This document shows positions 4,629 through 25,630 of a stretch of DNA of 38,840 nucleotides, one piece after another (position 1 is the stretch's first letter; every line of letters starts with the position of its first letter). Made by a program: the position numbers and the translations under genes. Origin of the DNA: Nitrospirota bacterium (GTDB lineage: Bacteria > Nitrospirota > Thermodesulfovibrionia > Thermodesulfovibrionales > UBA9159); the NCBI GenBank assembly GCA_023475105.1, contig JAMCWJ010000096.1, forward strand, positions 1-38,840, given 5' to 3'. The notes below the pieces were generated by a model. That model did not search any database. It was not told the DNA's origin and saw only the letters and a program-made list of their open reading frames with translations.

Positions 4629-4665
4629 CTTTCTTTCCTCGCTGCGCGTAGCGCGTTACGGTTTT

Positions 4666-8811: not shown

Positions 8812-8862
8812 AAAATCCTCCTCCTAAGCAAATCTTGACTTACATAGGAAAAACAAAAAAAT

Positions 8863-10701: not shown

Positions 10702-11795
10702 ATGGCCTTGATCCTCCTCAGCGCGCCGACGAAGTTATCGACGAGCAGGGGGTTGAAGTCCCTTGCCGTCGCCTCTTTCATGAGCTGCACTACCTTCGGA
10801 CTTTCGAGCGCCCTCCGGTAAGGCCTTTCGGTCCTCAGGGCATCAAAGAAGTCTGCAATAGCCACTATCTGGCTTATGATGTGCTGGTGATTTCTCCGGC
10901 GCTTTGTCTCAGGGTATCCGCTCCCATCAAATTTCATATGGTGCTCGAAAGCCGCGATCAGGGCGAGTTTCGGAACGTCTGAAAGGGTAGCAAGGTACCG
11001 CGCACCGAAGACGGGATGGGTCTTGATGGCGTTCCACTCCTCCAGATCCAGTTTTGTTACCTTCTCCAGGACCTCCTTTGAGACAAACAGCTTCCCCACA
11101 TCATGAAGAAGCCCGGCAAGGCCGACATCATGAAGATTCTCGCCTTTCATGCCCAGGGCTTCTGCCTGAAATATGGCAAGCACCGAGACGTTTGTGGCAT
11201 GGACATAGGTGTATTCACTGTAAGATTTCATCGGGCTGACGACGCGAAGAACATTAGTCTCCTTCTTCAGGGTCGTGATGAAGCCGGTAACCGCATCTTC
11301 CAGGCTCACTATGTCCAGTCTTCTAAATTTGGCAATCCCTTGGCAGAGCCCTTTGACCTTTGCGATATTCTCGTTTATCAAGGCGCTCACATCGGTCCCT
11401 GCCGAGTTGAACCTCACCTCCACCATGCCGACGGACAGGTGAGGGCTGGATACAACCTTTTCGGTGGAAGCAACACCGGCGATAAACTTCTTAAATTCCT
11501 CAATGCCGAGCCCCTTCTTTAGGACGATCTTTTCTATCCCTTTCCTCTTAAGTCTCCTTTTAAGACTGCTTATGTGGGTGCCCTTATCGGTGACGGGGCT
11601 GTTATTGAAGACCAGGCTGTCTCCCAGGAGGGTAAGGGTCAAGGTATCGTCAGAATAGAGTTCTTCCGCCACTCTCAGGGCATTTCCAGAGAACTCGCCT
11701 ACGAGGGGGTGCTGCTCAGAATATAATGAACAGTTCGAAAGGGCAGTCATTAAATGGGAAATAAGTTCAGTTACCTTCCCTTGAGACATTGTCAT
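10698..11795 (-). CDS. HD-GYP domain c-di-GMP phosphodiesterase with ~170-aa uncharacterised N-terminal domain (copy 1)
   Basis: HD motif LLHDVGK and the HHMKFDGSGYP (HD-GYP) signature. Converges on the 4Fe-4S gene with stop codons overlapping by 3 nt. Confidence 0.85.
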   Translation of the reverse strand: MTMSQGKVTELISHLMTALSNCSLYSEQHPLVGEFSGNALRVAEELYSDDTLTLTLLGDSLVFNNSPVTDKGTHISSLKRRLKRKGIEKIVLKKGLGIEEFKKFIAGVASTEKVVSSPHLSVGMVEVRFNSAGTDVSALINENIAKVKGLCQGIAKFRRLDIVSLEDAVTGFITTLKKETNVLRVVSPMKSYSEYTYVHATNVSVLAIFQAEALGMKGENLHDVGLAGLLHDVGKLFVSKEVLEKVTKLDLEEWNAIKTHPVFGARYLATLSDVPKLALIAAFEHHMKFDGSGYPETKRRRNHQHIISQIVAIADFFDALRTERPYRRALESPKVVQLMKEATARDFNPLLVDNFVGALRRIKAI

Positions 11796-13974
11796 TCCCT
11801 TTCTGTTTCAGGTTGAGAAGTCTTTCGCTTATTGCTCTGAATCTCTTCAGTTTCTCGCTTATTGTCCTGATCTCATTGTTCTTCGAGGTCAACCCCTTCT
11901 CAAGCAGGGGCTTCACCGCGGAATGAGGGTAGTTGGCGAGGCTCCTGAAGATCTCGGTCTTGAGTTCTTCCATGTCCGATTTATTAAGCATGGTCTTTGA
12001 CTGATAGAGCCTTGTCAGCGCCTCCGCCGCCCTGGGGTCTCCGATATCTCCCAACGCCTTCACTACGGGGATTTTGTAACGCCACTCCCTGCCGAAGAGA
12101 TCCTTCTTTTCGAGGATTTCGAGGAGATAGGGCACCGCCTCCTTGACCCGATGCGCACCTGCCAGTCTCACCACCTGATCCCGCAATGCCAGGTCCTTTG
12201 ACTGCAGGTAAAGTCTGATATATGAAAAGGTTCCGGGGACGTTGAAATGAAGAAGCGTTTTAACCGCCTCGATACTTATCCCTTTCTCCGCGTGTTTTGC
12301 AAGGGCTTCGATGCGGTCGACATAATTCACGCCGCCGCATTCTCTGATGAGATAGATCATATTCCGCACCACATACCACCGGTCGTCATTGAGCCTCCGC
12401 ACCGCGTCAGGGAGGATATCGTTCCTGAATCCCGCGAGTACCGAAAGAAGAAATTTCCTTATCGAGGGGTCTTTCTCCTCAGCAAGGGCGTCAAAGAGAG
12501 GATCGGTGAGATACCGTTTTAGCAGGCCTGCGAGTTTTGTCACCCCTTCCCTTTCAAACCTTCCCCAGAGCTTAAAGGCATCGACCATTTTTGCTATGGA
12601 GTCTTTCGAATAGAAGTAGGACTCGAGCATGCCGGATGCCTGCTCCCGGTATTTTCCGGCAAGGCTGTGGGAGTAAAGGGTGTTGTAGATGTCCGATATC
12701 TCCTCGAATCTCCCGGTCTCCAGAAAATCGCTGCCGAGTTCGGAGAGTTTTGAGAGCAGTGCAAGATAGTCATCCCTGCCTGTCCTATCCGAGTCGAGCA
12801 GTTCGAGCATAATACCGGATGCAACCCTGTCCACTGTTTCATCCCTGCACTCGATTGCCACCTCTTCAAGGATCGGCGACTTCTTCACTTCGAAGCCCCT
12901 GAGCATTCTTTCGATCTCTGCCTGGTATTTGTCCGTAACGAAGGTCTCGAATTGATCTTCGCTAAAAAGTCCCATAATGTGCTCGTCGATCTCCAGATCG
13001 TCCACAAGCCCCTTCTTGTCGACGATAAGGTCAAAAAAGCCCCGCCCTTTTTTTGCGGTGTTTAGCTTATCGATGAGATTCCGCAGACTGTCGGGGATGA
13101 GGGAAGAATGCTCGGCGAAGACGGTCATCATCTTCTCGATGTCGGCCCGCGTGAGCTCTCCGAACAGCCGCGCAGCCTCTCCGGCATCGATGGAGGGGCC
13201 GCTGAATGCCCTCTTAAGGAACTGCTGCTTGATCGTCGGACTGAGATTCTGAACCATCGAGATGAACCGGGTGAAGAGATCCCTGTTGATTCCTGAATCC
13301 TCTTTTTTTCTGAGGTAGGTAGTAATCACCCTGTCGTACGTCACCTCAGGCGTGTCCTGGGCCATCTGACGGTTGATTAAATCGGCGATATCCTCGGGGG
13401 CCACACTGAGGAGCACTCCCTCCGCATCTCCCTCCGCAAGTCTTCCCTCAAGAAGACCGTACACGTAATCTTCCCAGATTTTGGTCTCATCGCCATCCTG
13501 CCGAAGGGAGTCCTCGACAAAGCCGAACTTCGAAATGTCCAGAGCGGTCAGCACAACGTGTTTGAGGCCTTTTTCCTGCGTAAGCTCCGCGAGGGTCTTG
13601 CCCGTGGGCATGTCCTTCGCCGTAATCAGCTCATGCAGTCCGAGAAGCTCCTCCACCCCTAGCCCCGAATAAAAGGTGATGGCCGCGATTCCCCTGTTGT
13701 GAACACTGAGCGCAAATTCCTTAAATACAGGGTTTTTCCTGTCCAGAGTATATTCATCTACTACAAGGGTATCCTTCGCGATGCCGATGGTGATGCTGCT
13801 TCTGAGTTCAAAGAGTTTCTTGAGGAACTCGAAGGCTTTTTCTATGGATTCTCTGGTTATAGGATGTTCCGGGGGATAAAGGCTGACACTTCTCCTCGAG
13901 ATATTGAGCTCGATGACCGCATCGGAAAGAAGCTTGGCGTCGATCGGGAGCTTCTCACTTCTCTTCTCTTCCAT
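11767..13974 (-). CDS. 735-aa protein with uncharacterised N-terminal region and C-terminal HEAT/PBS-lyase-like repeats (copy 1, intact)
   Basis: Repeats of the AVPYLLEILEKKD...VVKALGDIGDPRAAEAL type in the last ~250 aa. Overlaps the HD-GYP gene start by 29 nt. No GGDEF or EAL motifs. Confidence 0.7.
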   Translation of the reverse strand: MEEKRSEKLPIDAKLLSDAVIELNISRRSVSLYPPEHPITRESIEKAFEFLKKLFELRSSITIGIAKDTLVVDEYTLDRKNPVFKEFALSVHNRGIAAITFYSGLGVEELLGLHELITAKDMPTGKTLAELTQEKGLKHVVLTALDISKFGFVEDSLRQDGDETKIWEDYVYGLLEGRLAEGDAEGVLLSVAPEDIADLINRQMAQDTPEVTYDRVITTYLRKKEDSGINRDLFTRFISMVQNLSPTIKQQFLKRAFSGPSIDAGEAARLFGELTRADIEKMMTVFAEHSSLIPDSLRNLIDKLNTAKKGRGFFDLIVDKKGLVDDLEIDEHIMGLFSEDQFETFVTDKYQAEIERMLRGFEVKKSPILEEVAIECRDETVDRVASGIMLELLDSDRTGRDDYLALLSKLSELGSDFLETGRFEEISDIYNTLYSHSLAGKYREQASGMLESYFYSKDSIAKMVDAFKLWGRFEREGVTKLAGLLKRYLTDPLFDALAEEKDPSIRKFLLSVLAGFRNDILPDAVRRLNDDRWYVVRNMIYLIRECGGVNYVDRIEALAKHAEKGISIEAVKTLLHFNVPGTFSYIRLYLQSKDLALRDQVVRLAGAHRVKEAVPYLLEILEKKDLFGREWRYKIPVVKALGDIGDPRAAEALTRLYQSKTMLNKSDMEELKTEIFRSLANYPHSAVKPLLEKGLTSKNNEIRTISEKLKRFRAISERLLNLKQKGNDNVSREGN

Positions 13975-14184
13975 CTTTGTTCGTCCCCATCAGACTGAGC
14001 AACTGTCCCCGGACTCCTCTATAATACTACTAATAGCGGAATCTTTAAAGAATCTTTTTTGTCGCGTGATAATTCGACCGGAGGCCCAGCAGGAGCCGGG
14101 CTGAGGTTCCGGGGATTCCCGGCAGGGGGTGGAGATGCGACCGGAAGACTTCTATTTCACAGGTGTGAGGATTCTTTACGGCGG

Positions 14185-15309
14185 TTAGATAGCCTTGATC
14201 CTCTTCAGCGCGCCGACGAAGTTATCGACGAGCAGGGGGTTGAAGTCCCTTCCCGCCGCCGCTTTCATAAACTCGACTGTCGGGCCGATGTCGAGGGCCC
14301 TCCGGTAAGACCTCTCTGTCCTCAGTGCGTCGAAAAAGTCGGCTATTGCGACCATCTGGCTCGCGATATGCTGTCTCTTCCCCCGCCTCTTCGTATCGGG
14401 ATACCCGTTTCCGTTGAATTTCATGTGGTGTTCGAAGGCGGCGATGACCGAAAGTTTCGGCGCGTCCGGGAGTGTTGCAAGATATCGTGCTCCAAGTACC
14501 GGATGCCGCTTTATGGCGTCCCATTCGGTCTCGCTGAGCTTTTCCGTCTTTTCAAGCACCCCTTTCGGTACGAACAACTTCCCCACGTCGTGGAGCAGAG
14601 CTGCAAGACCGAGGTCGTGAAGACTTTCTCCCTGTATCCCCAGGGCCTCTGCCTGGAACATGGTGAGCACCGAAACATTCGTGGCATGCACATAGGTATA
14701 CCCGCTGTAAGACTTCACCGGACTGATTATCCGGAGCACGTTCATCTCCCTTTTCAATGTCGAGATGAATCCCGCCACGGCATCCTCGAGGCTCACCACC
14801 TCCAGTCTTCTGAACTTGGCGACCCCCTGGTAGATCTCCCTGACCTTCGTGATATTTTCGTTTACGAGATCGCTGATATCGACTCCCTCGGCCTTGAATT
14901 TCACCTCGACCATACCCACCGAAACATGTGGGGAGGAGAGCACCCTCTCCCCCGAGACGGCGCGGGCTATGAACTGTTTCAGCTCTTCGAGATCCACCCC
15001 TTTCCGTATCACGATTTTCTCTATCCCTTTCTTCCTCATCCTTTTTTTGAAACTGTCGATATGCGTGCCGGTTTCCTTCACCGGGTTGTCATTTGCGACA
15101 AGACTGTCCCCGAGGAGGGTGAGACTTATCAGGTTGTCGCTGTAGAACCCTTCCATCAGCTCGAGGGCCTTTTGAGCAAACGCGTCGACCAGGGGGTGTC
15201 TCTCCGAGTAGAGGGAACAGTTCGAAAGGGAGGTCACGAGGTGAGAGATGAGTTCAGTTGGGTCCTTCGCGGTCATGGCCCTCTCCTTTGTTCCTGAGGA
15301 ATTTTTCAC
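14185..15309 (-). CDS. HD-GYP domain phosphodiesterase (copy 2, paralog of 10698..11795)
   Basis: About 70% aa identity to copy 1 by eye. HHMKFNGNGYP and LLHDVGK motifs are conserved. The last ~65 nt of the 3' end are near-identical to copy 1. Confidence 0.85.
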   Translation of the reverse strand: MKNSSGTKERAMTAKDPTELISHLVTSLSNCSLYSERHPLVDAFAQKALELMEGFYSDNLISLTLLGDSLVANDNPVKETGTHIDSFKKRMRKKGIEKIVIRKGVDLEELKQFIARAVSGERVLSSPHVSVGMVEVKFKAEGVDISDLVNENITKVREIYQGVAKFRRLEVVSLEDAVAGFISTLKREMNVLRIISPVKSYSGYTYVHATNVSVLTMFQAEALGIQGESLHDLGLAALLHDVGKLFVPKGVLEKTEKLSETEWDAIKRHPVLGARYLATLPDAPKLSVIAAFEHHMKFNGNGYPDTKRRGKRQHIASQMVAIADFFDALRTERSYRRALDIGPTVEFMKAAAGRDFNPLLVDNFVGALKRIKAI

Positions 15310-17424
15310 TCATCGTCCGTATCTCTTTGTCCCGTGAAGTGAGCCCGCGTTCAAGAAGGGGCCTCACAGAGGCCGGCGGATACTGGGAGAGGCTCTTCAG
15401 GATCTCGCCCCTTATCTCCTCCATCCTGCTTCGGTAAAGCAGGCTCCTGGCGCGGCATAGCCTCATGAGCGCATCCAGCGCCCTGGGGTCTCCTATCTCT
15501 CCGAGCGCCCTCACCACGGAAAGCTTGTAATGAAGTTCGATGCCGAAAAGGTCCTTCCGTTCGAGTATTTCGAGAAGGTAAGGGACCGCCTCCCTCACCT
15601 TGTACGCACCCGCAAGCCGTATTATTTGGTCCCGTAACTCGAGGTCTTTGGACTGAAGGAAGAACCTGACGTAGGGAAAAGCCCCGGGGATACCGAAGTG
15701 CAGGAGGGTCTTCGTCGCTTCGACGCTTATCCTCTTGTCCGGATGTTTCGCCAGCGGCTTGACACGGCCGACGTGCTGTATGCCTCCGCACTCCCTGATA
15801 AGGTATATCATGTTTCTCACCACATACCACCGGGCATCGTTCAGTCTTCTCGCCGCCTCCGGGACTATGTCGGTCCTGAAGGCGGCCAGCACGGAAAGGA
15901 AGAACTTCCTTGTCGAAGGATCGGCCTCTCCCGCAAGGGCGTCCAGCAGGGGGTCGGTCAGAGAGCGCTTCAGAACCCGTGCGATACGCATTACCCCTTC
16001 CCTGTTAAGTCTTCCCCAGAGCTTGAACGCCTCGACGAGCTTCGCAAGTGAACGCCTCCGAAGTGAAGGAATACTGGATCATCGCTGCAGCCTCTTCCCT
16101 GAACCTCCCGTTGAGGGCCTCCGAGTAAAGGGCGTTGTAAATCTCGGTGATCTCCTCGAATCTACCGGTCACGAGAAATTCCAACGAGACCTGCAAGCTT
16201 CGTGAGGAGCGCAAGGTACCCTTCCCTGTCCGTGGAGTCAGAGCCGATGAGTTCGATCAGCACCTCGGCGGTCACGCGGTCGATCGTCTCATCCCGGCAC
16301 TCGGCCTTCACTTCCTCCGGCACACGCGACCTCCGGCTGTCGAAGCCTCTCAGCATCCGCTCGAGCTCCTCCTGATATCGCTCTGCAACGAAGCTCTTGA
16401 ATCCGTCCTCGGTGAAAAGCCCCAATATCTCCTCGTCGATCTCGAGGTCGTCCACAACGCCTTTCTCTTCCGCGAGCAGATCGAAGAATCCGTTTCCCCT
16501 CTTGGAAGCTGTCAGCTTATCGATGGTGTTCCTCAGGCTCTCGGGAATGAAGGAGGAGTGCTCGGTGAAAATCCTCATCACCTTCTCTATATCGGACTGC
16601 ATCAGCCCGTTGAATAGCTCTTCGGCCTCCTTCGTGTCGATCTGCGGATAACTGAATGACCTCCTCAGAAACTGCTCCTTGAGCTTCGGATTGAGGTCCT
16701 CAACCATCGAGATAAACCGTGTGAAGAGCTCCCGGTTGAAGCCCGAGTTCTCTTTCCTTCTCAGGTAGCCCGTGATCACTCTGTCGTAAGTCTTTTCCGG
16801 AGCGTTTTCGGGTATCTGTTCGTTGAGGAAGGAGGCAATGTTCCCCGGGGGCAAGGCGAGGAGCACCCCCTCGGCCTCCGAATCGGCGAGCTTCCCCTCG
16901 AGCAGTCCGTACACATAATCTTCCCATATCGCGCCTTCGGGGCCGGTCTCTCTCAGGGAATCCTCTACGAAACCGAACTTCGAAATATCGATGGGGATGA
17001 GGCCCAGGTGCGTGAGACCGTCCTTTCCTGCTCGTTCGGCCAGGGCCTTCCCCACAGGGGCCTCCTTCGAGGTGATCAGCTTCTGCAGACCGACGAGTTC
17101 GTCCCTTTCAAGCCCCGTATAAAAAGTGATCGCCGCGATTCCCTTGCGGTGTATGCTGAGGGCGAATTCCCTGTAGACGGGGTTCTTCCTCTCGAGGGTA
17201 TATTCGTCGATCACGAGCGTGTCTTTTGCAACGCCGATCGTGATGCTGCTCCTCAGTTCGAAGAGCTTCCGGAGGAACTGAAAGGCCTTATCGATCGACT
17301 CCCGGGCGATGGGATGTTCCGGGGGATAGAGGCCGACACTCCGCCTCGAAATGTTGAGCTCGATGACCGCATCGGAAAGAAGCTTGGCGTCGATCGGAAG
17401 CTTCCCGCTTCTCTTCTCTTCCAC
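15254..17424 (-). pseudogene. HEAT-repeat protein gene, copy 2, disrupted by two frameshifts (ORF fragments 16162..17424, 16005..16214, 15254..15991)
   Basis: The three ORF fragments are collinear with the copy-1 protein (N-terminal 420 aa, middle 69 aa, C-terminal 245 aa). Frames shift near ~16200 and ~16060-16080. The aligned segment between the conserved CTTCCCCAGAG and GAGTAAAG anchors is 120 nt here (~16008..16127) versus 119 nt in copy 1 (~12559..12677), a net 1-nt indel. Confidence 0.6.
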
Positions 17425-17445
17425 TAATTGTTCGTCCCCCTCAGA

Positions 17446-17476
17446 CTTGAGCAGCTGTCCCCGGACTCCTATATAA
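17446..17476 (+). promoter_or_regulatory. putative sigma70-type promoter for the Clp1-like gene (TTGAGC - 17 nt - TATATAAT)
   Basis: Hexamers read by eye. The sequence is conserved in the duplicated copy at ~14000-14030. Confidence 0.3.
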
Positions 17477-17581
17477 TACTACTAATAGCGAAGTCTTTAA
17501 AGAATCTTTTTTTGTCGTTGGAGTAATTCGACCCGTGGCCCTGCAGGAGCGGCTGACGGTCCCCGGGATTCCCGGCAGGAG

Positions 17582-18472
17582 GTGGAGATGCGACCGGAGG
17601 ACTTCATAACGGACAGGGAGGTCCTCGAAGAATTGGTCGGGCCCCGGAACAGGCTCATAATGGTCCTGGGGGCCTCCGACACGGGGAAAACGGCCCTTGT
17701 TGCAACGCTCGCGGCGTTTCTTTCCGAGCTCGCACCGGCCGCGGTCGTGGATCTGGACATGGGACAGTCCCATATAGGACCTCCGGCAACGATCGCCTGG
17801 GGCAGGATCGACCGGGGGGGCGCGGAGTGGTCGGCTGTCGCTGTCGAAGACTTCTATTTCACGGGAAGCACCACGCCCTTCGGGAATCTTCTGCCGGCTG
17901 TTACCGGCTCAAAGCTCATGACGGACAAGGCCCTTTTCTCGTGCCGGAAGGTTCTGGTCGACACCACGGGGCTCGTTGCGGAACCGGCGGGACGGGCGTT
18001 GAAGCACTTCAAGATCGATCTCCTGGGTCCGGACATCATCCTCGCTCTTGAACATTCAGGCGAGTTGAGCCATATCCTCGACCCCTTCAGGCCGGCGAAA
18101 CACCCTAAGGTATACAGGCTCCTCGCGCCGAAGGGGGCGCGGGCGAAGACATCGGCCGGAAGGAGTCTCTACCGGTTCGAAAAGATGGAGCGTTATTTTG
18201 CGGATTCAGAGGTCCGCGCTGTTCCGATCGATGATGTCGGGATGCGATTCACAAAGGGACCGGCGCCCCCCGGAGCCCTGAAGCACAGGATCGTCTCCTT
18301 CAGGGACGAGGAGAACAGGGACATCGCCCTCGGCCTCGTCGAGGGGGTGAAGGAGGAGGAAGGTCTTCTCCTCATACGCACCCCTTTGGGAGAAGGGAGA
18401 CGCTTCTGCACCCTGGTGGTCGGAAAAACCGAAATGGACAGGGCGAACTCCCTGTTGACCGATGTGCGCTGA
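17582..18472 (+). CDS. Clp1-family P-loop protein (polynucleotide 5'-kinase-like)
   Basis: IMVLGASDTGKTALVATL matches the Clp1 P-loop VMVVGPTDVGKSTLCRLL. VDLDMGQSHIGPPAT matches VELDVGQGSVSIPGT. FYFTGSTTPFGN matches YHFGSTTPGTN. VDTTGLVAEPAGRAL matches NTCGWVKGSGYQAL. The true start may be the second ATG at 17588, which has better AGGAGG spacing. Confidence 0.7.
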   Translation: MEMRPEDFITDREVLEELVGPRNRLIMVLGASDTGKTALVATLAAFLSELAPAAVVDLDMGQSHIGPPATIAWGRIDRGGAEWSAVAVEDFYFTGSTTPFGNLLPAVTGSKLMTDKALFSCRKVLVDTTGLVAEPAGRALKHFKIDLLGPDIILALEHSGELSHILDPFRPAKHPKVYRLLAPKGARAKTSAGRSLYRFEKMERYFADSEVRAVPIDDVGMRFTKGPAPPGALKHRIVSFRDEENRDIALGLVEGVKEEEGLLLIRTPLGEGRRFCTLVVGKTEMDRANSLLTDVR

Positions 18473-18531
18473 GACCGGCCGTGCGCGACGGAGCTTTCTC
18501 CTTTCTTGCCGGGGTCGTCCCTGATGGTATA

Positions 18532-19275
18532 ATGATTTCCGTGAATATCGTTACCGCAAAGGGCCTTACAAAGGATTACGGTCCGCTCAGGGCCGTGGAC
18601 GGCATAGACTTTTCGATCGCGCAGGGGGAATGTTTCGGGTTTCTCGGTCCGAACGGTGCGGGCAAGACGACGGTAATGCGCATCATCTACTGCTTCGTGC
18701 CTCCGTCCTCGGGAGAGGTGCGGGTCTTCGGCATGGAGGTGAAGGAGAGTCCCGGCAGGATAAAGAAGAAAATCGGCGTGATGCCCCAGGAAGACAACCT
18801 CGACCCCGACCTGACCGTCCTCGAAAATCTTGTGGTCTATGCGAGATACTTCGACATCCCGAAGAGCGGATCACTGCGGCTCGCCTCGGAACTGCTCGCA
18901 TTCGTCGAACTCCAGGGCAAGGCAAAGGCGAAGATCGGGGACCTTTCGGGAGGGATGAAACGGAGGCTGATCCTTGCGCGGGCACTGATCAACGAACCGG
19001 AACTGCTCGTCCTCGACGAGCCGACCACCGGCCTCGATCCCCACAGCAGACATTCCGTCTGGGACAAGCTGAATCAGCTGAAGGAAAAGGATACGACCCT
19101 TTTACTCACCACCCATTACATGGAAGAGGCGGAAAAACTCTGCGACAGGGTCGCTATCATGGACGCCGGAAAGATTGTGACGATCGACACCCCCGCATCG
19201 CTTATGCAGCTGCACGGAGGCGACCTTGAAGACGTCTATCTCAAACTGACGGGGAAAGACTTGGTCCTGCCATGA
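18532..19275 (+). CDS. ABC transporter ATP-binding protein (ABC-2/NodI-DrrA-like exporter ATPase)
   Basis: Walker A GPNGAGKTT, signature LSGGMKRRL, Walker B LLVLDEPTTGLD. The ORF tool start at 18481 is probably too early, and the in-frame ATG at 18532 is preferred. Confidence 0.85.
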   Translation: MISVNIVTAKGLTKDYGPLRAVDGIDFSIAQGECFGFLGPNGAGKTTVMRIIYCFVPPSSGEVRVFGMEVKESPGRIKKKIGVMPQEDNLDPDLTVLENLVVYARYFDIPKSGSLRLASELLAFVELQGKAKAKIGDLSGGMKRRLILARALINEPELLVLDEPTTGLDPHSRHSVWDKLNQLKEKDTTLLLTTHYMEEAEKLCDRVAIMDAGKIVTIDTPASLMQLHGGDLEDVYLKLTGKDLVLP

Positions 19276-20036
19276 TGATGTCGCTGAGTGTGAGAAAGGC
19301 ATTCAGGGTCTGGCAGAGGAATTTCACCGTGTACACCAAGCTCTATCTCTCGAGTCTTGCGCTGAATTTTGTCGAGCCTGTTCTGTATCTTGCCGCACTC
19401 GGTCTCGGCCTAGGCGCCTTTGTGAAAGAGATACACGGTGTGCCGTACATAAACTTTATCGCGCCGGGGATCATCGCATCCTCTTCCATGTTTGCCGCGA
19501 TCTATGAATGCACCTACGGCACCTATGTGAGAATGACCTTTCAAAAGACGTTCGACGCCATACTGGCGACTCCTGTGAACATCAACGACCTCGTGGCGGG
19601 CGAATTGCTGTGGGGAGCGACCAAGAGTGTGCTCTACGGCACGATTATCATGGTCGTGATATCCCTGTTCGGGCTCGTAGATTCCGCTGCGATCGTGCTG
19701 GTCATACCGGTGCTCTTTATAAGCGGGCTCATCTTTTCGGAGATATCCCTTGTCGCGGTCGCGACCGTGCCGGGGATAGACACCTTCAACTATTTTTACA
19801 CGCTCCTGATGACCCCGATGTTCCTCTTTTCAGGCATCTTTTTCCCCCTGGACACGCTGCCTCCCGTTGTCATGAAGATCGCCTTTTTCACCCCCCTCTA
19901 TCATCTTGTGAACATCTGCAGGGCCTTTTCTTCGGGGAATATCGGAGACCCCCTTGACCTCGTATGGCTTGTCGCCGTCGTCGCAATCCTGGCGCCCTAT
20001 CCCTTCAGATTGATGAGAAGGCGGATCATAAAATAA
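19272..20036 (+). CDS. ABC-2 type transporter permease (NodJ/DrrB-like)
   Basis: Six predicted TM helices. ATGA overlap with the ATPase gene. Confidence 0.8.
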   Translation: MMMSLSVRKAFRVWQRNFTVYTKLYLSSLALNFVEPVLYLAALGLGLGAFVKEIHGVPYINFIAPGIIASSSMFAAIYECTYGTYVRMTFQKTFDAILATPVNINDLVAGELLWGATKSVLYGTIIMVVISLFGLVDSAAIVLVIPVLFISGLIFSEISLVAVATVPGIDTFNYFYTLLMTPMFLFSGIFFPLDTLPPVVMKIAFFTPLYHLVNICRAFSSGNIGDPLDLVWLVAVVAILAPYPFRLMRRRIIK

Positions 20037-21645: not shown

Positions 21646-22791
21646 ATGACGCAATTCATGGAAGTCGTCGAGTGGTTCGACAAAACAGGCCAGGAAGTTG
21701 TGCACCGCTATCCCGAAGAGGGCTCCGGAGAGATAAAGTTCGGCGCGCAGGTTGTAGTAAGAGAAAACCAGGCGGCGGTTTTCTTCAGGGACGGAAAGGG
21801 GATGGACGTCCTCGGACCGGGAAGGCATACCCTCTCGACACAGAACCTGCCGATCCTGACCAAGGTCCTCTCGCTGCCCTGGGGGTTCAAGAGCCCGTTC
21901 AGATGCGAGATCTATTTCGTCAATCTGAAGGTCTTTACCAACATGCGATGGGGGACAAAGGACCCCGTCGCCTTCAAAGACGAGCAATTCGGTCTTATCC
22001 GTCTGAGGGCCTTCGGCACCTTCACCATGCAGGTGACGCAGCCCCTCCTCTTTCTCAATACCCTTGTCGGGACTCAGGGAAGCTTCGAGACGGCGAACGT
22101 CGAAGACTATCTGAGGGAGATCATCGTGTCGAGACTGAACGACTTCCTCGGAGAGGCCGTCGACACGCTCGTCAATCTTCCGAAATACTATGACGAGATG
22201 GCGGTGGCGGTGAAGACGCGCCTCATGGAGGACTTCAGAAAATACGGGATGGAGATGAACGATTTTTACATCAACCGGATCACCCCTCCCGAGGAAGTTC
22301 AGAAAATGATAGACGAACGCTCGGGGATGGCGGCTGTCGGTGATCTCGACAGCTTCCTGAAGTATAAGGCGGCAAAGGCGATGGGCGATGCGGCGGTCTC
22401 CGGGGGAGAGGGTACAGGGGGGGGCGCGGCCGCGGGCATGGGCCTCGGCATCGGCGCGGGCATGGGCATGATGATTCCCGGAATGCTCTTTAAGGTCCTC
22501 GGAAACGGTCAGATCACCCCGGAGAAGATCGCGGAAAAGGGGCTTGTGAATTGCCCTGCGTGCCACGGCGACGTGCCGCTCAGCAGCCGGTTCTGTCCCC
22601 ACTGCGGCCACCAGCTTGTCGTGATCGCGAAATGTCCCCGGTGCAGCAAAGACCTCGCGGTTGGAGACAGATTCTGTCCTTCCTGCGGACTTGATCTCAG
22701 CGCCGAACTCCGCTGCGGCAAATGCAGCGCCAAACTCCCGCCGGGCACAAGGTTTTGCTTTAATTGCGGGGAAAAGGCATCGGGAGAATGA
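21646..22791 (+). CDS. SPFH/band-7 family protein of the YdjI-like ('virion core protein-like') type with three C-terminal zinc ribbons
   Basis: N-terminal EVVEWFD...AAVFFRDG...RAFGTFTMQV resembles Bacillus YdjI-type SPFH proteins as recalled. Gly/Met-rich linker. Three CxxC-x(9-12)-CxxC ribbons: CPACHGD..CPHCGH, CPRCSKD..CPSCG, CGKCSAK..CFNCG. Confidence 0.6.
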   Translation: MTQFMEVVEWFDKTGQEVVHRYPEEGSGEIKFGAQVVVRENQAAVFFRDGKGMDVLGPGRHTLSTQNLPILTKVLSLPWGFKSPFRCEIYFVNLKVFTNMRWGTKDPVAFKDEQFGLIRLRAFGTFTMQVTQPLLFLNTLVGTQGSFETANVEDYLREIIVSRLNDFLGEAVDTLVNLPKYYDEMAVAVKTRLMEDFRKYGMEMNDFYINRITPPEEVQKMIDERSGMAAVGDLDSFLKYKAAKAMGDAAVSGGEGTGGGAAAGMGLGIGAGMGMMIPGMLFKVLGNGQITPEKIAEKGLVNCPACHGDVPLSSRFCPHCGHQLVVIAKCPRCSKDLAVGDRFCPSCGLDLSAELRCGKCSAKLPPGTRFCFNCGEKASGE

Positions 22792-22835
22792 CTGCGCACG
22801 GCGCGCCCGGGCCGGCAGTTTAAGGGACCCGCCCC

Positions 22836-24383
22836 GTGAACCGCCTCGTCGTTACAACGGAATGTCCTTCCTGCGGCGCGCCCCTCGATTTTTCCGAGGG
22901 GACAAACGCGCTCACCTGCGGGCACTGCAGATCGAACCTCCTCGTCACCGGGAAGGGACAGCTGCTGAGCTATTACATATCTCCCTCGCTCGGTGAACGT
23001 ATTGCGATCGCCAGGGCCACGATGGCCCAAAGGAACAGGGGCAGGACGGAACTCAGGGGGGTCCGCGCAAATCTGTATTTCATTCCCTACTACCGGATGA
23101 CGGGCCAGGACTTCAACTGGGAGGAGGCCCCGCCGGAGCCGGCGAGGGAGGTGAGCGGGGAAGACCTCGATTACGGGACATACGGAGAAATGACGTGGAG
23201 GCTGGGTCCGGAGGATATTTCTTCGCTCTGGGGCGCAGCCAAGGACTTCTTCGGACTGATTTCCGGCATGGCTGGAGGAAAGGGGAGAGAGAAGGAACAA
23301 GGAAGGGAGACCCCGATGCGCACGCCGCCGGAGGCGGTAGCCCCGGGACGTCCGGGGGATACCGCCCCGCCCAGGCAAAGGGAGGTCGCTCCGGCGAGGT
23401 CTTCCCTTTACGAGAGAAAGAAAGTCCTTCTCAATGACAGGTACATCGAAAAAAACTTTCTCGCCTGTGATCTCCACGGTATCGGAATATACTCGCTCGG
23501 CATAAGGCCTGCCGTGCTCAGGCTCGAACTCCTTCGCAGGGAAAAGGTCGGTTCTCTCGGGCGCATCGTGAAACCGACACTCGGGCCTGAGGCAGGTGAA
23601 GAAGTCGGGGAAATGGCGGCGCCGGATGCGTCCTTTCTCTCGCGACAGATCATCGGAAAGGTGTTTTCCCTCATCTATTTCCCCTTCTGGATCGTAGAGA
23701 TGGAATCAAGGGGGGAGACGCTCATTACGGTGATCGACGCAGTTTCCGGGGCTGTTGTCCGGGCTGACCTCCCTGCTTTTATCTATCGGACGCTCGACCG
23801 GGCCCTTGAAGAGGAGCCGATGACAATCGGGTTTCGCCCCCTCGTCTGTCCCAACTGCGGCTGGGACTTTCCGGTGAGGTCGGAAGACTCGATCTTTCCC
23901 TGCGCCACATGCAGAAAGGCATGGCAGATACGCGGAAACGGGCTGATCGAGATCGGATACCGGGTCGCCGCCGCACCCGGGAACGACAGCCCGGAGCAAC
24001 TCACCTACCTTCCTTTCTGGGTTGTGGATGCCCTTCCGGAGCAGGGGCGCACCTTTCGGTTTTTCATCCCCGCGTTCCGCTACCGCAGACTGAAATTCCT
24101 CCTGGACCTCGCACTCGTCACATCGAGACTCTGCCCTCCCTATGCGCTCGGGAAAGCCTGCGGGGAATTGTCAGGCGTCTACTATGACCTTGAAGACGCC
24201 GCACGCCTCGCACAATTCGTCAGGACTGCGCTGATTGCGGCAACCATACGGGATTTCAGGTTCGGTCCGCAGGGCTTGAGCGTCACGGGCGCAACCCTGA
24301 CGTGGTTCCCTTTCAGAAAAGAAAAGGGATACCTTGTCGCCCCCTTCGGCTACATCTCGATCCCGGCGAACCTGCTCCTCTGA
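22836..24383 (+). CDS. duplicated zinc-ribbon domain protein (YdjG-like?)
   Basis: Two internal repeats, each opening with a zinc ribbon (CPSCGAPLDF..CGHCRSNL and CPNCGWDFPV..CATCRKAW) followed by a conserved YFPFW/YLPFW segment. Co-oriented 45 nt downstream of the SPFH gene. Confidence 0.55.
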   Translation: MNRLVVTTECPSCGAPLDFSEGTNALTCGHCRSNLLVTGKGQLLSYYISPSLGERIAIARATMAQRNRGRTELRGVRANLYFIPYYRMTGQDFNWEEAPPEPAREVSGEDLDYGTYGEMTWRLGPEDISSLWGAAKDFFGLISGMAGGKGREKEQGRETPMRTPPEAVAPGRPGDTAPPRQREVAPARSSLYERKKVLLNDRYIEKNFLACDLHGIGIYSLGIRPAVLRLELLRREKVGSLGRIVKPTLGPEAGEEVGEMAAPDASFLSRQIIGKVFSLIYFPFWIVEMESRGETLITVIDAVSGAVVRADLPAFIYRTLDRALEEEPMTIGFRPLVCPNCGWDFPVRSEDSIFPCATCRKAWQIRGNGLIEIGYRVAAAPGNDSPEQLTYLPFWVVDALPEQGRTFRFFIPAFRYRRLKFLLDLALVTSRLCPPYALGKACGELSGVYYDLEDAARLAQFVRTALIAATIRDFRFGPQGLSVTGATLTWFPFRKEKGYLVAPFGYISIPANLLL

Positions 24384-24568: not shown

Positions 24569-25630
24569 GTGGATACGAATGTTCTCAGGGAACAGATCAA
24601 ACTGAACTGCACCATATCGGATGCGCGTTTCTGGGGATACTATTCCATATGCGGCCTCCTCATGAGGCTGAGGGAGCTTTACAGAAACGAAAAGTCTCTC
24701 ATGCCCTGGGACGGGATACGGAAAGAAGAGATGTCGGAATGGATCGCCTCCCGGGAATCACAGTGGAAAGCCCTCGAAAACGAAGACCTCCGTCCCCTCG
24801 AGATTCAGGGAAAGGTTTACGACCCGTTCGAAGTCGACGGTCTGAATGCGCTCCTCAGCAGTCACGGCATGGTCTACGGCGGGGGATACGGCAGGTTCAA
24901 CAAGCCGACGTTTTTCCTCGCCCGTCTCGAAGGGAAACGGGAATACTACGATTATCTCATCCACTATACGGGAAGGGAGTTCAGCAGGGACCTTTCGACC
25001 TCTGTGGCGATGCTCCAGGGCAGATGTATATTCATGAGACTCGAACCGCTGAGCGCCCTGCTCTGGGACAAGTTTCAGGAGTTGCGCAGCAGGAAATTCA
25101 GGGGCGCGCTGGGTGACGCGTTTTCGTCGAGGGGGATTGACGGGTCTCTGCCGCCGAAAGAAGTCTACGGCAGGATCGTCGCGCTTTCCCGGCAGGTCTC
25201 GGAACTCTTCGTCCGTCACGAGATCGGCGAGGCCTTTGAAGATGAGGAAGCGGATGCATGGCTCGGGATCCTCTCCCAGAACGCCGACAGGGCGACCGAA
25301 TTCTATCTGAGAGGGATAAAGGACGTGCTTGCGGATAGTTCCGTCATGGGTCCTCTCAGGGATATCATCGAGAGGAGAGAAAGGTCGGAGATGAGTTTCT
25401 ACATGGTCTTTCTCGACGGAATCAGAAAGTCGCTCTTCCCGGAAATCATGACCGCCTTCCAGGTTTTTACAGAGGGGGGGAACTGGTCCGTGCTCGAAGA
25501 AGCGCGGAGTCGCGGATACGCAAGGACACATGCCCTTCGCAAAGAGGTCGTCGGCTTATGGAAGGAAGGGAAGGCGGAGAAGATCGGGCCCCTGATTCAG
25601 GAGCGTGTGAAGTCCTCTCCCGTCCGTTAG
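24569..25630 (+). CDS. conserved hypothetical protein (353 aa), GTG start
   Basis: Long ORF with ordinary amino-acid composition. The antisense ORF 24758..25531 is Arg/Pro-rich and judged spurious. Confidence 0.5.
   Translation: MDTNVLREQIKLNCTISDARFWGYYSICGLLMRLRELYRNEKSLMPWDGIRKEEMSEWIASRESQWKALENEDLRPLEIQGKVYDPFEVDGLNALLSSHGMVYGGGYGRFNKPTFFLARLEGKREYYDYLIHYTGREFSRDLSTSVAMLQGRCIFMRLEPLSALLWDKFQELRSRKFRGALGDAFSSRGIDGSLPPKEVYGRIVALSRQVSELFVRHEIGEAFEDEEADAWLGILSQNADRATEFYLRGIKDVLADSSVMGPLRDIIERRERSEMSFYMVFLDGIRKSLFPEIMTAFQVFTEGGNWSVLEEARSRGYARTHALRKEVVGLWKEGKAEKIGPLIQERVKSSPVR

What the first reader, a model, noticed from the sequence alone, without database searches (positions are those of the whole stretch)
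17582..20036. Clp1-family polynucleotide-kinase-like P-loop protein in a bacterium, upstream of a NodIJ/DrrAB-like ABC exporter
The 296-aa product aligns block-by-block with eukaryotic/archaeal Clp1 (P-loop G.SD/TDxGKT/S, DLD.GQ, FGSTTP, the switch-like TTG/TCGW region and the following hydrophobic block). Clp1/Grc3/Nol9 are RNA 5'-kinases of tRNA splicing and mRNA 3' processing. Bacterial homologues are rare and poorly characterised. The N-terminal ~25 aa before the P-loop is much shorter than the eukaryotic N-domain, so this is a minimal Clp1 core. Its promoter region is part of the duplicated segment, and a 5' fragment of the gene was copied into the duplication junction. A co-oriented ABC exporter starts 60 nt downstream.
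Basis: partly seen in the sequence, partly recalled or inferred. Interest (0 to 1): 0.7.

Follow-up and report, generated by a model that had tools for sequence, protein, structure and literature searches.

The report
Bacterial Clp1-type polynucleotide kinase gene
This gene in an uncultured Nitrospirae bacterium encodes a compact relative of the Clp1 RNA 5'-kinase of eukaryotes and archaea; the bacterial branch of the family is already catalogued and has one characterised member, so the only fresh point is that the gene is repeatedly found joined to an ABC exporter.

Summary
MobB and similar P-loop families score at noise level.

The protein lacks only the eukaryotic N-domain. It keeps the Clp1 C-terminal domain.

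The duplication junction and the ABC pair 59 nt downstream are also confirmed.

The kind is not new. Saito et al. 2019 catalogued bacterial Clp1 proteins, Nitrospirae included, and showed RNA 5'-kinase activity for the Thermus enzyme. PGAP and IMG already name its relatives (this ORF itself is still 'hypothetical protein').

What I add is context:
- In the window's clade, Clp1 and the ABC-2 exporter form a tight operon (12-13 nt gaps). A distant clade has the same layout.
- In Planctomycetota the kinase sits directly upstream of RtcA and near PolX.

Best reading: an ATP-dependent polynucleotide 5'-OH kinase for RNA (possibly DNA) end healing. The link to the exporter is unexplained.

The parts
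17472..17477 (+). TATAAT box in the divergent intergenic region upstream of the Clp1-like gene (candidate -10 element)
   Evidence: Read directly from the sequence. The box is shared with the closest relatives L001, L063 and L065, while the rest of the intergenic region is not conserved. It is also present in duplicate copy 1. Promoter function is inferred, not shown.
17577..17582 (+). AGGAGG ribosome-binding site, 5 nt upstream of ATG 17588
   Evidence: Sequence. It overlaps the GTG at 17582 that the ORF finder used, which argues for ATG 17588 as the start. NCBI's model is 294 aa.
17588..18472 (+). Clp1-family polynucleotide 5'-hydroxyl-kinase-like CDS (294 aa plus stop)
17669..17692 (+). Walker A / P-loop G28-A-S-D31-T-G33-K34-T35
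   Evidence: G28, D31, G33 and K34 are invariant and T35 nearly invariant in 77 relatives. Aligns with GPTDVGKT of C. elegans Clp1 and GPTDVGKS of human Clp1.
17747..17773 (+). Walker B block V54-D55-L-D57-M-G59-Q60-S61-H62
   Evidence: D55, D57, G59, Q60 and S61 are invariant. Aligns with VELDVGQ of Clp1.
17960..17974 (+). Clasp motif D125-T126-T127-G128-L129 (Clp1 has T-x-G-W)
   Evidence: D125, T126 and G128 are invariant. Aligns with NTCGW of C. elegans and human Clp1. The Trp is replaced by Leu; across 270 relatives this position is L, M, F, Y or W.
18161..18175 (+). Lid motif R192-S-L-Y-R196
   Evidence: R192 and R196 are invariant in 77 relatives. Aligns with RSKMR of C. elegans Clp1.
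18209..18469 (+). C-terminal all-beta domain (residues 208-294), structurally equivalent to the Clp1/Grc3 C-terminal domain
18473..18531 (+). 59-nt gap between the Clp1-like stop and the ABC ATPase start; holds a promoter-like site (TTGCCG-16-TGgTATAAT, 18506-18533) and no terminator-like hairpin
   Evidence: promoter and terminator scan; the gap is 12-13 nt in most orthologous loci, and the stop and start overlap as TAATG in L083.
18532..19275 (+). ABC transporter ATP-binding subunit (247 aa), DrrA/NodI-like
   Evidence: PF00005 115.7 bits. TIGR01188 drrA 272.7 bits and NodI models 250-270 bits, all below their equivalog or subfamily cut-offs. Start fixed by orthologue alignment.
19272..20036 (+). 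ABC-2 type permease (254 aa), NodJ/DrrB-like; its start overlaps the ATPase stop by 4 nt
   Evidence: PF01061 62.9 bits. TIGR01291 nodJ 184.7 bits, below the cut-off of 206.65. Coordinates.
14105..14152 (+). Copy of the Clp1 promoter-proximal region plus the first 6 codons (MRPEDF) at the duplication junction; the remnant ORF 14135-14188 reads into unrelated sequence
   Evidence: Repeat D7, 92% identical to 17558-17605. Sequence.
14165..17605 (.). Copy 2 of the ~3.45-kb tandem duplication (HD_5 gene, frameshifted HEAT-repeat gene, divergent promoter region, first 18 nt of the Clp1 CDS); copy 1 is 10678-14152
   Evidence: 70.3% identity over 3497 columns. Pfam HD_5 and HEAT_2 in both copies.

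Best explanation
The gene encodes a bacterial member of the Clp1/Grc3/Nol9 family of polynucleotide 5'-hydroxyl kinases. It has two domains, a SIMIBI-type P-loop kinase domain (about residues 20-207) and a Clp1-type C-terminal beta domain (208-292). It lacks the eukaryotic N-terminal domain.

Proposed mechanism, inferred by homology:
- The P-loop (K34/T35) and Mg2+ bind ATP or another NTP.
- The Walker B aspartate (D57, in VDLDMGQ) activates the 5'-OH of a single-stranded RNA end. DNA is expected to be a poorer substrate.
- The clasp (T126-T127-G128-L129) and the lid arginines (R192, R196) hold the terminal nucleotides and stabilise the transition state.
- The product is a 5'-monophosphate end.

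The likely cellular role is healing of 5'-OH ends left by metal-independent ribonucleases, ribotoxins or chemical cleavage. A healed end can then be ligated, or it can enter 5'-monophosphate-dependent decay.

In this lineage the gene is the first cistron of a conserved unit with a DrrAB/NodIJ-like ABC-2 exporter. I treat co-transcription as likely and biochemical coupling to the exporter as unproven.

Shown here: family membership by sequence and by predicted fold, intact catalytic motifs, and conserved gene order. Inferred: kinase activity, substrate and physiological role.
For: - Sequence family: CLP1_P 87.1 bits (cut-off 26.6), full-length profile match. The profile of 77 relatives hits C. 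elegans Clp1 at E = 9.7e-10 and human Clp1 at 4.7e-8, with Walker A, Walker B, clasp and lid in register.
- Catalytic residues: G28, D31, G33, K34, D55, D57, G59, Q60, S61, D125, T126, G128, R192 and R196 are invariant in 77 relatives that are 46-61% identical to the query, which indicates purifying selection on the active site.
- Biochemical precedent: Thermus scotoductus Clp1 phosphorylates ssRNA and dsRNA with an ATP Km of 2.5 uM, and ssDNA only at higher enzyme concentrations. The same paper reports similar properties for archaeal Pyrococcus horikoshii Clp1 (PMC6777427).
- Context in other clades points to nucleic-acid end chemistry. RtcA (PF01137, E = 1.6e-73) lies directly downstream in 12 of 58 non-redundant lineages, together with PolX+PHP upstream. 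RtcA is divergent directly upstream in two near-clade loci, L079 and L090.
- Operon with ABC-2: the ATPase lies directly downstream in 8 of 58 non-redundant lineages, with gaps of 12-13 nt or overlapping stop and start codons. No terminator-like site lies in the window's 59-nt gap.
Against: - No activity was measured. Yeast Clp1 keeps an ATP site but is reported to lack kinase activity (my own knowledge of the literature), so intact motifs do not guarantee catalysis.
- The clasp Trp that contacts the RNA in C. elegans Clp1 is Leu here.
- This window holds no RNA ligase, RtcA/RtcB, Hen1 or nuclease partner. The RNA-repair role therefore rests on neighbours seen in other clades.
- The conserved partner in this clade is a membrane exporter, which no RNA-repair model predicts.
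- The window's gap carries a promoter-like site.
- In L002 the orthologous ABC pair sits 6 kb away, behind opposite-strand genes. Co-transcription is therefore not obligatory.
- I could not compare the protein directly with Ts-Clp1, because the sequence in the supplement is corrupted by OCR.
Confidence: 0.72

Rival explanations
1. The protein works with the ABC-2 exporter rather than on RNA ends. It could be a P-loop accessory or regulatory NTPase, or a kinase that phosphorylates the exporter's substrate or the transporter itself. In that case the Clp1 fold has been recruited to a membrane-transport function.
For: - Clp1 and the ABC ATPase/permease are adjacent and co-oriented, with 12-13 nt gaps or overlapping stop and start codons, in the window's clade (L064-L073, L076, L083, L085).
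- The same layout occurs in a distant clade with ArgC-ArgJ upstream (L020-L022, L105, L112, L114-L117), where Clp1 identity to the query is only 37-43%.
- 19 of 30 ABC ATPase-like genes in all loci lie directly downstream of Clp1, against a background of 1.2% per gene.
- The clasp Trp is lost.
Against: - Every residue that defines RNA-kinase chemistry in Clp1 is invariant, including both lid arginines.
- Most lineages of the same family (50 of 58) have no ABC gene directly downstream, and 12 have RtcA there instead.
- The two ABC-linked clades amount to about two independent contexts, and their transporters differ. The ATPases are 245 and about 330 aa, and the permeases are only 23-26% identical. 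Chance adjacency in one of them cannot be excluded; I estimate P of roughly 0.05-0.1.
- In L002 the pair is split by 6 kb.
Confidence: 0.12
2. It is mainly a DNA 5'-OH kinase for repair of DNA strand breaks, the bacterial counterpart of the kinase half of mammalian PNKP, rather than an RNA enzyme.
For: - In Planctomycetota the gene lies in one string with a PolX polymerase carrying a PHP 3'-phosphoesterase domain.
Against: - Ts-Clp1 prefers RNA strongly.
- RtcA, the most frequent direct neighbour, is an RNA 3'-phosphate cyclase.
- No DNA-repair gene lies near the gene in this window or its clade.
Confidence: 0.08
3. It is a catalytically silent nucleotide-binding scaffold, like yeast Clp1 in CF IA, or a decaying gene caught at the edge of a duplication.
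For: - Yeast Clp1 binds ATP without kinase activity (my own knowledge).
- The protein evolves faster than its neighbours. It is 59% identical to L001 while the HEAT and HD genes are 80-82% identical. It is 55-57% identical to L064-L073 while the ABC genes are 77-85% identical.
- The gene abuts a duplicated segment whose HEAT gene is frameshifted.
Against: - The ORF is intact and full length, with a good ribosome-binding site.
- The catalytic motifs are invariant.
- The fast rate is a property of the whole clade. Its identity matrix is star-like at 50-60%, and this copy is not an outlier.
- The duplication breakpoint lies 18 nt inside the CDS of the copied fragment, not in the functional copy.
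Confidence: 0.06
4. It belongs to another P-loop family (a MobB, ArgK/MeaB or GPN-type GTPase) and was mistaken for Clp1 because of the shared Walker A motif. Older database entries did call relatives 'GTPase'.
For: - Weak P-loop-only hits: MobB TIGR00176 at E = 0.013, CbiA at 0.05, AAA_16 at 0.03.
- Relatives were once annotated as GTP-binding proteins (PMC6777427).
Against: - These hits cover only residues 14-66 and fall far below the cut-offs (15.5 against 76.2 bits for MobB).
- CLP1_P covers residues 30-207 at 87 bits.
Confidence: 0.01

Closest known systems
Bacterial Clp1 family proteins (Saito et al. 2019, PMC6777427), with Thermus scotoductus Ts-Clp1 (E8PQM6) as the characterised member and Geobacter uraniireducens A5G778 as the catalogued reference
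   Same: - Same Pfam domain (CLP1_P).
- Short N-terminus before the P-loop and a length class of about 280-295 aa (A5G778 is listed at 281/295 aa).
- Same Walker A, Walker B, clasp and lid set.
- Legible fragments of the Ts-Clp1 gene read GPTDTGKS, LDLDPGQ and DTDGY.
- Nitrospirae are already listed among phyla with such proteins.
   Different: - Ts-Clp1 is shorter (240 aa) and starts at the P-loop. Its lid has Lys where human Clp1 has Arg299, whereas this protein keeps both arginines.
- The paper states that bacterial Clp1 lack the conserved archaeal C-terminal domain. Here the model shows a Clp1-type C-terminal domain.
- The paper does not mention ABC transporters (0 occurrences) or RtcA (0 occurrences).
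- Identity to Ts-Clp1 could not be computed.
Eukaryotic Clp1 (human CLP1, C. elegans Clp1; PDB 8hmy, 4ohv-4oi2)
   Same: - The catalytic motifs align in register.
   Different: - About 20% sequence identity.
- No N-terminal beta-sandwich domain: 294 aa against 425-445 aa.
- The clasp Trp is Leu.
- No TSEN or cleavage-factor partners exist in bacteria.
Grc3/Nol9 (pre-rRNA ITS2 processing kinase bound to the Las1 nuclease; PDB 8puw, 7y18, 9dun)
   Different: No N-terminal domain. No Las1-like HEPN nuclease among the neighbours in the window or in any locus cluster I annotated.
Archaeal Clp1 (Pyrococcus horikoshii PH0197, O57936)
   Same: A prokaryotic stand-alone Clp1 kinase whose properties the paper calls quite similar to those of Ts-Clp1 (PMC6777427).
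   Different: It is 361 aa, with a longer N-terminus and an archaeal-type C-domain by sequence. I did not compare it directly here.
Bacterial Pnkp/Hen1 and T4 Pnk-type kinases; the RtcAB RNA repair system
   Same: The proposed role is the same, healing of 5'-OH RNA ends. RtcA is a direct neighbour of this family in Planctomycetota and in two Nitrospirota loci.
DrrAB / NodIJ ABC-2 exporters
   Same: The downstream pair has the DrrA/NodI-type ATPase and the NodJ/DrrB-type six-helix permease architecture, with overlapping genes.
   Different: Every equivalog or subfamily cut-off is missed: drrA 272.7 against 312.45, NodI 250-270 against 424-549, nodJ 184.7 against 206.65. The ATPase lacks the DrrA C-terminal domain. 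The substrate is unknown.

Membership tests
Clp1/Grc3/Nol9 polynucleotide 5'-kinase family (Pfam CLP1_P, PF16575) | Significant full-length match to the CLP1_P profile above the gathering score | tested here: met
   87.1 bits against 26.6, E = 1.7e-24, residues 30-207 matching profile positions 1-187 of 188.
Clp1/Grc3/Nol9 polynucleotide 5'-kinase family (Pfam CLP1_P, PF16575) | Walker A P-loop GxxxxGK[ST] | tested here: met
   G28-ASDTG-K34-T35. Invariant in 77 relatives and aligned to GPTDVGKT/S of Clp1.
Clp1/Grc3/Nol9 polynucleotide 5'-kinase family (Pfam CLP1_P, PF16575) | Walker B D-x-G-Q with the catalytic aspartate | tested here: met
   V54-D-L-D57-M-G-Q60, invariant, aligned to VELDVGQ.
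Clp1/Grc3/Nol9 polynucleotide 5'-kinase family (Pfam CLP1_P, PF16575) | Clasp motif T-x-G-W | tested here: inconclusive
   T126-T-G128 is conserved and in register with TCGW, but the Trp is Leu129. Across relatives this position is L, M, F, Y or rarely W. Fragments of the active Ts-Clp1 read DTDGY, so a non-Trp residue seems compatible with activity.
Clp1/Grc3/Nol9 polynucleotide 5'-kinase family (Pfam CLP1_P, PF16575) | Lid motif with two arginines (R-x-x-x-R) | tested here: met
   R192 and R196 are invariant and aligned to RSKMR of C. elegans Clp1.
Clp1/Grc3/Nol9 polynucleotide 5'-kinase family (Pfam CLP1_P, PF16575) | Clp1 fold: SIMIBI-type kinase domain plus the Clp1 C-terminal domain | tested here: met
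   [not shown]
Clp1/Grc3/Nol9 polynucleotide 5'-kinase family (Pfam CLP1_P, PF16575) | NTP-dependent phosphorylation of 5'-OH polynucleotide ends | not testable with these tools
   Needs an enzyme assay. The precedent is Ts-Clp1 (PMC6777427).
Eukaryotic Clp1 proper (tRNA splicing / mRNA 3'-end factor) | N-terminal beta-sandwich domain (Clp1_eN) and partners such as TSEN or Pcf11 | tested here: not met
   Only about 22 residues precede the first core strand, and there is no Pfam match for an N-domain. The protein is therefore a family member but not an orthologue of eukaryotic Clp1.
Grc3/Nol9-Las1 module | Partner HEPN nuclease Las1 | tested here: not met
   No Las1 or HEPN match among the window's neighbours or the recurrent neighbour clusters I annotated.
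   [not shown]
NodIJ / DrrAB ABC-2 exporters (downstream genes) | Equivalog or subfamily HMM cut-offs for NodI, NodJ, DrrA and DrrB | tested here: not met
   drrA 272.7 against 312.45, nodI 250.2 against 424, NF010059/NF010060 about 269 against 549/521, nodJ 184.7 against 206.65, drrB 64.1 against 223. The generic ABC_tran and ABC2_membrane Pfam models are met. The pair is an ABC-2 exporter of unknown substrate that resembles these systems.
Known anti-phage defence systems (PADLOC) | Match to a defence-system protein model | tested here: not met
   The Clp1-like protein hits only mad8 at E = 0.007 over the P-loop. The ABC ATPase hits are generic NBD similarity. The permease hits nothing.

The most novel reading that the evidence does not exclude
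The Clp1-type kinase and the ABC-2 exporter form a true functional module, conserved in Thermodesulfovibrionales-type Nitrospirota and in a distant candidate-phylum clade. One version is a response unit against RNA-damaging or ribosome-targeting compounds, in which the pump expels the agent while the kinase heals or marks the 5'-OH RNA ends that are produced. Another version is a kinase whose phosphorylated product is the pump's substrate. Either would give the Clp1 family a physiological context in bacteria that has not been described, alongside a second undescribed context, the PolX-THEP1-DUF429-nitroreductase-Clp1-RtcA string of Planctomycetota.
Probability: 0.12. Interest if true: 0.6.

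Novelty: new member of a known kind. Interest (0 to 1): 0.3.

Why it matters
The physiological role of Clp1-type kinases in bacteria is unknown. Bacteria have no tRNA-splicing endonuclease, no CF IA and no Las1, so it is unclear what produces the 5'-OH ends these enzymes would act on.

This locus does not answer that, and the protein itself is an ordinary member of a catalogued family. The comparative data collected here do give testable leads:
- a recurrent operon with an ABC-2 exporter;
- direct linkage to RtcA and PolX in Planctomycetota;
- a predicted Clp1-type C-terminal domain, which a sequence-based study reported as missing in bacterial members.

If the exporter link proved functional, it would connect RNA end-healing with efflux. 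If not, this is a correctly recognised but routine annotation.

Tried and rejected
- MobB, ArgK or another P-loop family: rejected.
- Known anti-phage defence system: no specific PADLOC match.
- Structured RNA or riboswitch in the unusually well-conserved duplicated intergenic region. Rfam finds nothing in the whole window at gathering thresholds, and nothing at E <= 1 in 17380-17640. The region is not conserved in relatives beyond a TATAAT box. Rejected in favour of local homogenisation or promoter constraint.
- The window's Clp1 as a long-branch or decaying copy: rejected, because the identity matrix is star-like for the whole clade.
- GTG 17582 as start codon: rejected in favour of ATG 17588.
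- GTG 18481 as the ABC ATPase start: rejected in favour of ATG 18532.
- Metagenome scan with the single protein found no relative. It worked when repeated with alignment A2.
- A literature search for 'COG1341' returned nothing. Searches for Clp1 together with RtcA, operon or RNA repair systems returned no paper describing these bacterial neighbourhoods. One search failed on term length. A geosmin preprint that matched 'CLP1' uses the term for a cargo-loading peptide and is irrelevant.
- Direct comparison with Ts-Clp1 failed. The gene sequence in the supplement is corrupted by OCR, and no Thermus-type member was among the 270 fetched proteins.


Full report
**What is in the sequence**

The ORF finder lists a 296-aa ORF at 17582..18472 (+). 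It is followed by ORFs at 18481..19275 and 19272..20036 on the same strand.

The start given in the finding is slightly off:
- An AGGAGG box at 17577-17582 overlaps the GTG at 17582 and sits 5 nt upstream of the ATG at 17588.
- NCBI's model for this contig is 294 aa. The contig is a 38,840-nt Nitrospirae MAG contig, and the model is P0001, named 'hypothetical protein M1497_13590'.
- Relatives start at the equivalent Met.

The ABC ATPase starts at the ATG at 18532, not at the GTG at 18481. Fourteen orthologues begin MPINIVTA or MPIDIVTA, aligned with MISVNIVTA. The ATPase stop and the permease start overlap by 4 nt.

**Family assignment**

Sequence evidence:
- Pfam CLP1_P matches residues 30-207 against profile positions 1-187 of 188, at 87.1 bits (gathering score 26.6, E = 1.7e-24). 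All other P-loop families are at noise level and cover only the Walker A region.
- NCBIfam has no significant model. MobB scores 15.5 bits against a cut-off of 76.2.
- A single-sequence search of PDB sequences finds human CLP1 (E = 0.0027) and C. elegans Clp1.
- A profile of 77 relatives finds C. elegans Clp1 at 9.7e-10 and human CLP1 at 4.7e-8, with all four kinase motifs in register.

Structural evidence:
- An AlphaFold2 model built on the 77-sequence alignment is very confident (mean pLDDT 94.5, pTM 0.92).
- The first 23 Foldseek hits against the PDB are all Clp1, Grc3 or NOL9, with E down to 9e-19 and TM 0.70-0.78 normalised to the query. Then comes a drop to SRP GTPases at E of about 1e-3 and TM 0.35.

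The kinase domain ends near residue 207. More than 270 aligned residues therefore means that the all-beta C-terminal domain (strands between 208 and 292) is the Clp1/Grc3 C-terminal domain. The protein is 'Clp1 minus the N-domain', not a bare kinase core.

**Catalytic apparatus**

In 77 relatives that are 46-61% identical to the query, these positions are invariant:

| Motif | Invariant residues |
|---|---|
| Walker A | G28, D31, G33, K34 |
| Walker B (VDLDxGQS) | D55, D57, G59, Q60, S61 |
| Clasp | D125, T126, G128 |
| Lid | R192, R196 |

The only departure from the eukaryotic pattern is the residue after the clasp glycine. It is Trp in Clp1 and Leu here, and across 270 relatives it is L, M, F, Y or rarely W. 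The legible fragments of the active Thermus enzyme read DTDGY at this place. A non-Trp hydrophobic residue is therefore probably tolerated.

**What is already known**

Saito et al. 2019 (PMC6777427) surveyed Clp1 family proteins in all three domains:
- They found them in 14 of 1,543 bacterial species with complete genomes, and collected 149 bacterial sequences from UniProt.
- They noted the short N-termini.
- They listed Nitrospirae among the phyla (6 species, 7 proteins).
- They used Geobacter uraniireducens A5G778, formerly annotated as a 'GTPase', as the bacterial query.
- They showed that Thermus scotoductus Clp1 phosphorylates ssRNA and dsRNA (ATP Km 2.5 uM), and ssDNA only at higher enzyme concentrations.

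In the protein database the window's protein has 336 relatives at E <= 1e-3. Many are already named 'Clp1/GlmU family protein' (PGAP) or 'polynucleotide 5'-hydroxyl-kinase GRC3/NOL9' (IMG). An exhaustive profile search finds 2,551 clusters at 50% identity with E <= 1e-3, of which 891 have E <= 1e-30.

The protein is a new member of a known kind. 'Rare and poorly characterised' overstates the case.

**Gene neighbourhood**

I fetched 62 loci from reference genomes and MAGs and 70 from metagenomes. I clustered all flanking ORFs de novo and annotated the recurrent clusters with Pfam. I then collapsed the Clp1 sequences at 70% identity and kept lineages with at least 700 nt of 3' sequence, which left 58 informative lineages:

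| Arrangement | Lineages out of 58 |
|---|---|
| ABC ATPase directly downstream | 8 |
| RtcA directly downstream | 12 |
| RtcA divergent, directly upstream | 2 |

Three patterns stand out.

1. The window's own clade (49-59% identity). The layout is HD_5 gene (-), HEAT-repeat gene (-), Clp1 (+), ABC ATPase (+), ABC-2 permease (+). It recurs in L063, L069, L071, L073, L076 and L085. Other upstream genes are seen in L064, L066, L067, L072 and L083. The Clp1-ABC gap is 12-13 nt in most loci, and the stop and start overlap as TAATG in L083. The ABC proteins are 66-85% identical to the window's.
2. A distant clade (37-43% identity; Aerophobetes and 'Clostridia' MAGs). The layout is ArgC, ArgJ, Clp1, ABC ATPase, ABC-2 permease, MarC, with gaps of -8 to 50 nt.
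3. Planctomycetota. The string PolX+PHP, THEP1-type NTPase, DUF429, nitroreductase, Clp1, RtcA and an AMP-dependent ligase is conserved in many loci. Two near-clade Nitrospirota loci (L079, L090) have RtcA divergently adjacent.

ABC ATPase-like genes make up 1.2% of the other genes in these loci, yet 19 of the 30 found lie directly after Clp1. The two ABC-linked clades represent only about two independent contexts, however. Their transporters also differ: the ATPases are 245 and about 330 aa, and the permeases are 23-26% identical. In L002 the orthologous ABC pair (82% identity) lies 6 kb away, behind opposite-strand genes.

I conclude that co-transcription is likely in this clade and that a functional link is possible but unproven. 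In the window itself the gap has grown to 59 nt. It contains a promoter-like site (TTGCCG, 16 nt, TGgTATAAT at 18506-18533) and no terminator-like hairpin.

**The duplication**

Segments 10678-14152 and 14165-17605 are a diverged tandem duplication, 70.3% identical over 3497 aligned columns. Each copy carries an HD_5 gene and a HEAT-repeat gene on the minus strand, together with the divergent promoter region.

The right edge of the duplicated unit lies 18 nt inside the Clp1 CDS. Copy 1 therefore ends with the promoter region and the codons MRPEDF (14135-14152), then reads into unrelated sequence.

Further details:
- In copy 2, the copy next to Clp1, the HEAT gene is broken by two frameshifts into 420-aa and 245-aa ORFs.
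- Copy 1 is 80-82% identical in protein to the single-copy orthologues in L001, while copy 2 is 69-70% identical.
- The intergenic part is about 90% identical between the copies. Relatives share only the TATAAT box at 17472-17477, and the region has no Rfam match.

**Mechanism and role**

The best-supported explanation is an NTP-dependent polynucleotide 5'-OH kinase that acts preferentially on RNA ends. The chemistry follows from homology to C. elegans, human, archaeal and Thermus enzymes. The invariance of the catalytic residues supports it.

The RtcA and PolX+PHP neighbours in other clades fit a role in healing broken nucleic-acid ends. Nothing in this window supplies a ligase, cyclase or nuclease partner. 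The surrounding genes are ordinary chromosomal genes:
- a multihaem cytochrome;
- a TetR-OEP-HlyD-ABC efflux cluster;
- a response regulator;
- an SPFH protein with zinc ribbons;
- a DUF6866 protein;
- HisD and HisC;
- sensor kinases.

The exporter link has no precedent that I could find. It is either operon convenience or a new functional pairing.

Rivals, in decreasing order of weight:
- an accessory or kinase function tied to the exporter;
- a DNA-end kinase;
- a silent scaffold;
- a misassigned P-loop family, which is refuted.

**Verdict**

The protein is a routine member of the catalogued bacterial Clp1 family, so interest is modest.

The parts I could not find in the literature are:
- the conserved Clp1-ABC-2 operon;
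- the RtcA and PolX linkage in Planctomycetota;
- the predicted retention of the Clp1 C-terminal domain.

These deserve a note rather than a claim.

Noticed in passing
L027, L029, L030, L032, L039, L043, L045, L047, L048, L053, L055, L058, L061 (Planctomycetota loci), around the match at about 8001-8800: A conserved co-oriented gene string: PolX+PHP polymerase, THEP1-type NTPase (PF03266), DUF429, nitroreductase, Clp1-like kinase, RtcA (PF01137), often followed by an AMP-dependent ligase. The gaps are often between -14 and +8 nt. It looks like a nucleic-acid end-healing operon, and I found no description of it in the paper library.
   Followed up: partly
L079 (RtcA on the minus strand directly upstream of the match at 1919-2791) and L090: In two loci of the window's own Nitrospirota clade, RtcA lies divergently adjacent to the Clp1-like gene. 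This is a second Clp1-RtcA association, in a different arrangement from the Planctomycetota one.
   Followed up: partly
window 15991-16162 (minus strand), within duplicate copy 2: The HEAT-repeat gene is 735 aa in copy 1 (11767-13974) and 718-723 aa in relatives. In copy 2 it is split by two frameshifts into 420-aa and 245-aa ORFs. This is either a decaying pseudogene or a MAG assembly error.
   Followed up: partly
window 13975-14152 and 17425-17605: The duplicated intergenic/promoter stretch is about 90% identical between the two copies (repeat families at 92-94%), while the flanking coding DNA is about 70% identical. It is not conserved in relatives and has no Rfam match. Gene conversion or promoter constraint is suspected but was not resolved.
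   Followed up: partly
window 17588-18472 compared with L001, L064-L073: The Clp1-like protein evolves much faster than its syntenic neighbours. It is 59% identical to L001 while the HEAT and HD genes are 80-82% identical. It is 55-57% identical to L064-L073 while the ABC ATPase and permease are 77-85% identical. The clade's identity matrix is star-like at about 50-60%.
   Followed up: partly
window 18506-18533: A promoter-like site (TTGCCG, 16 nt, extended -10 TGgTATAAT; 10 of 12 matches) lies inside the 59-nt Clp1-ABC gap and overlaps the ABC start codon. Relatives with 12-13 nt gaps have no room for it, so this organism may have partly uncoupled the two genes.
   Followed up: no
window 24569-25630; L083 and L091: A DUF6866 protein (PF21739 and PF21740) lies 4.5 kb downstream in the window. 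It follows the ABC pair in L083, and follows Clp1 itself after a 218-nt gap in L091. It is a recurrent neighbour of unknown function.
   Followed up: no
L010, L011, L012 around the match: In another Thermodesulfovibrionales subclade the context is ThiG-, ThiE- and ThiC-like genes (read by eye, no Pfam run), the Clp1-like gene, an HD-domain protein (minus strand) and a Macro-domain protein. Macro domains process ADP-ribose phosphate by-products of tRNA splicing in yeast (my own knowledge), so this is a weak thematic link.
   Followed up: no
window 2413-9474 (minus strand): A complete efflux cluster: TetR regulator, outer-membrane factor (OEP), HlyD-type adaptor, two paralogous ABC ATPases and two ABC-2 permeases. 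The paralogous ATPases account for direct repeat D5. This is a second ABC-2 system close to the Clp1 locus, and its HlyD and ferredoxin-like neighbours are syntenic with Clp1 in L066, L067 and L072.
   Followed up: no
window 21646-24383: An SPFH/Band-7 protein with three C-terminal zinc ribbons (381 aa) is followed by a 515-aa protein with no Pfam match that also carries CxxC pairs.
   Followed up: no
PMC6777427 compared with model m164eb1e6a7e2: The published survey says bacterial Clp1 lack the conserved archaeal C-terminal domain. For this about 290-aa bacterial subfamily, the predicted structure superposes on the Clp1/Grc3 C-terminal domain (272-283 residues aligned). The domain is probably retained but unrecognisable by sequence.
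   Followed up: yes
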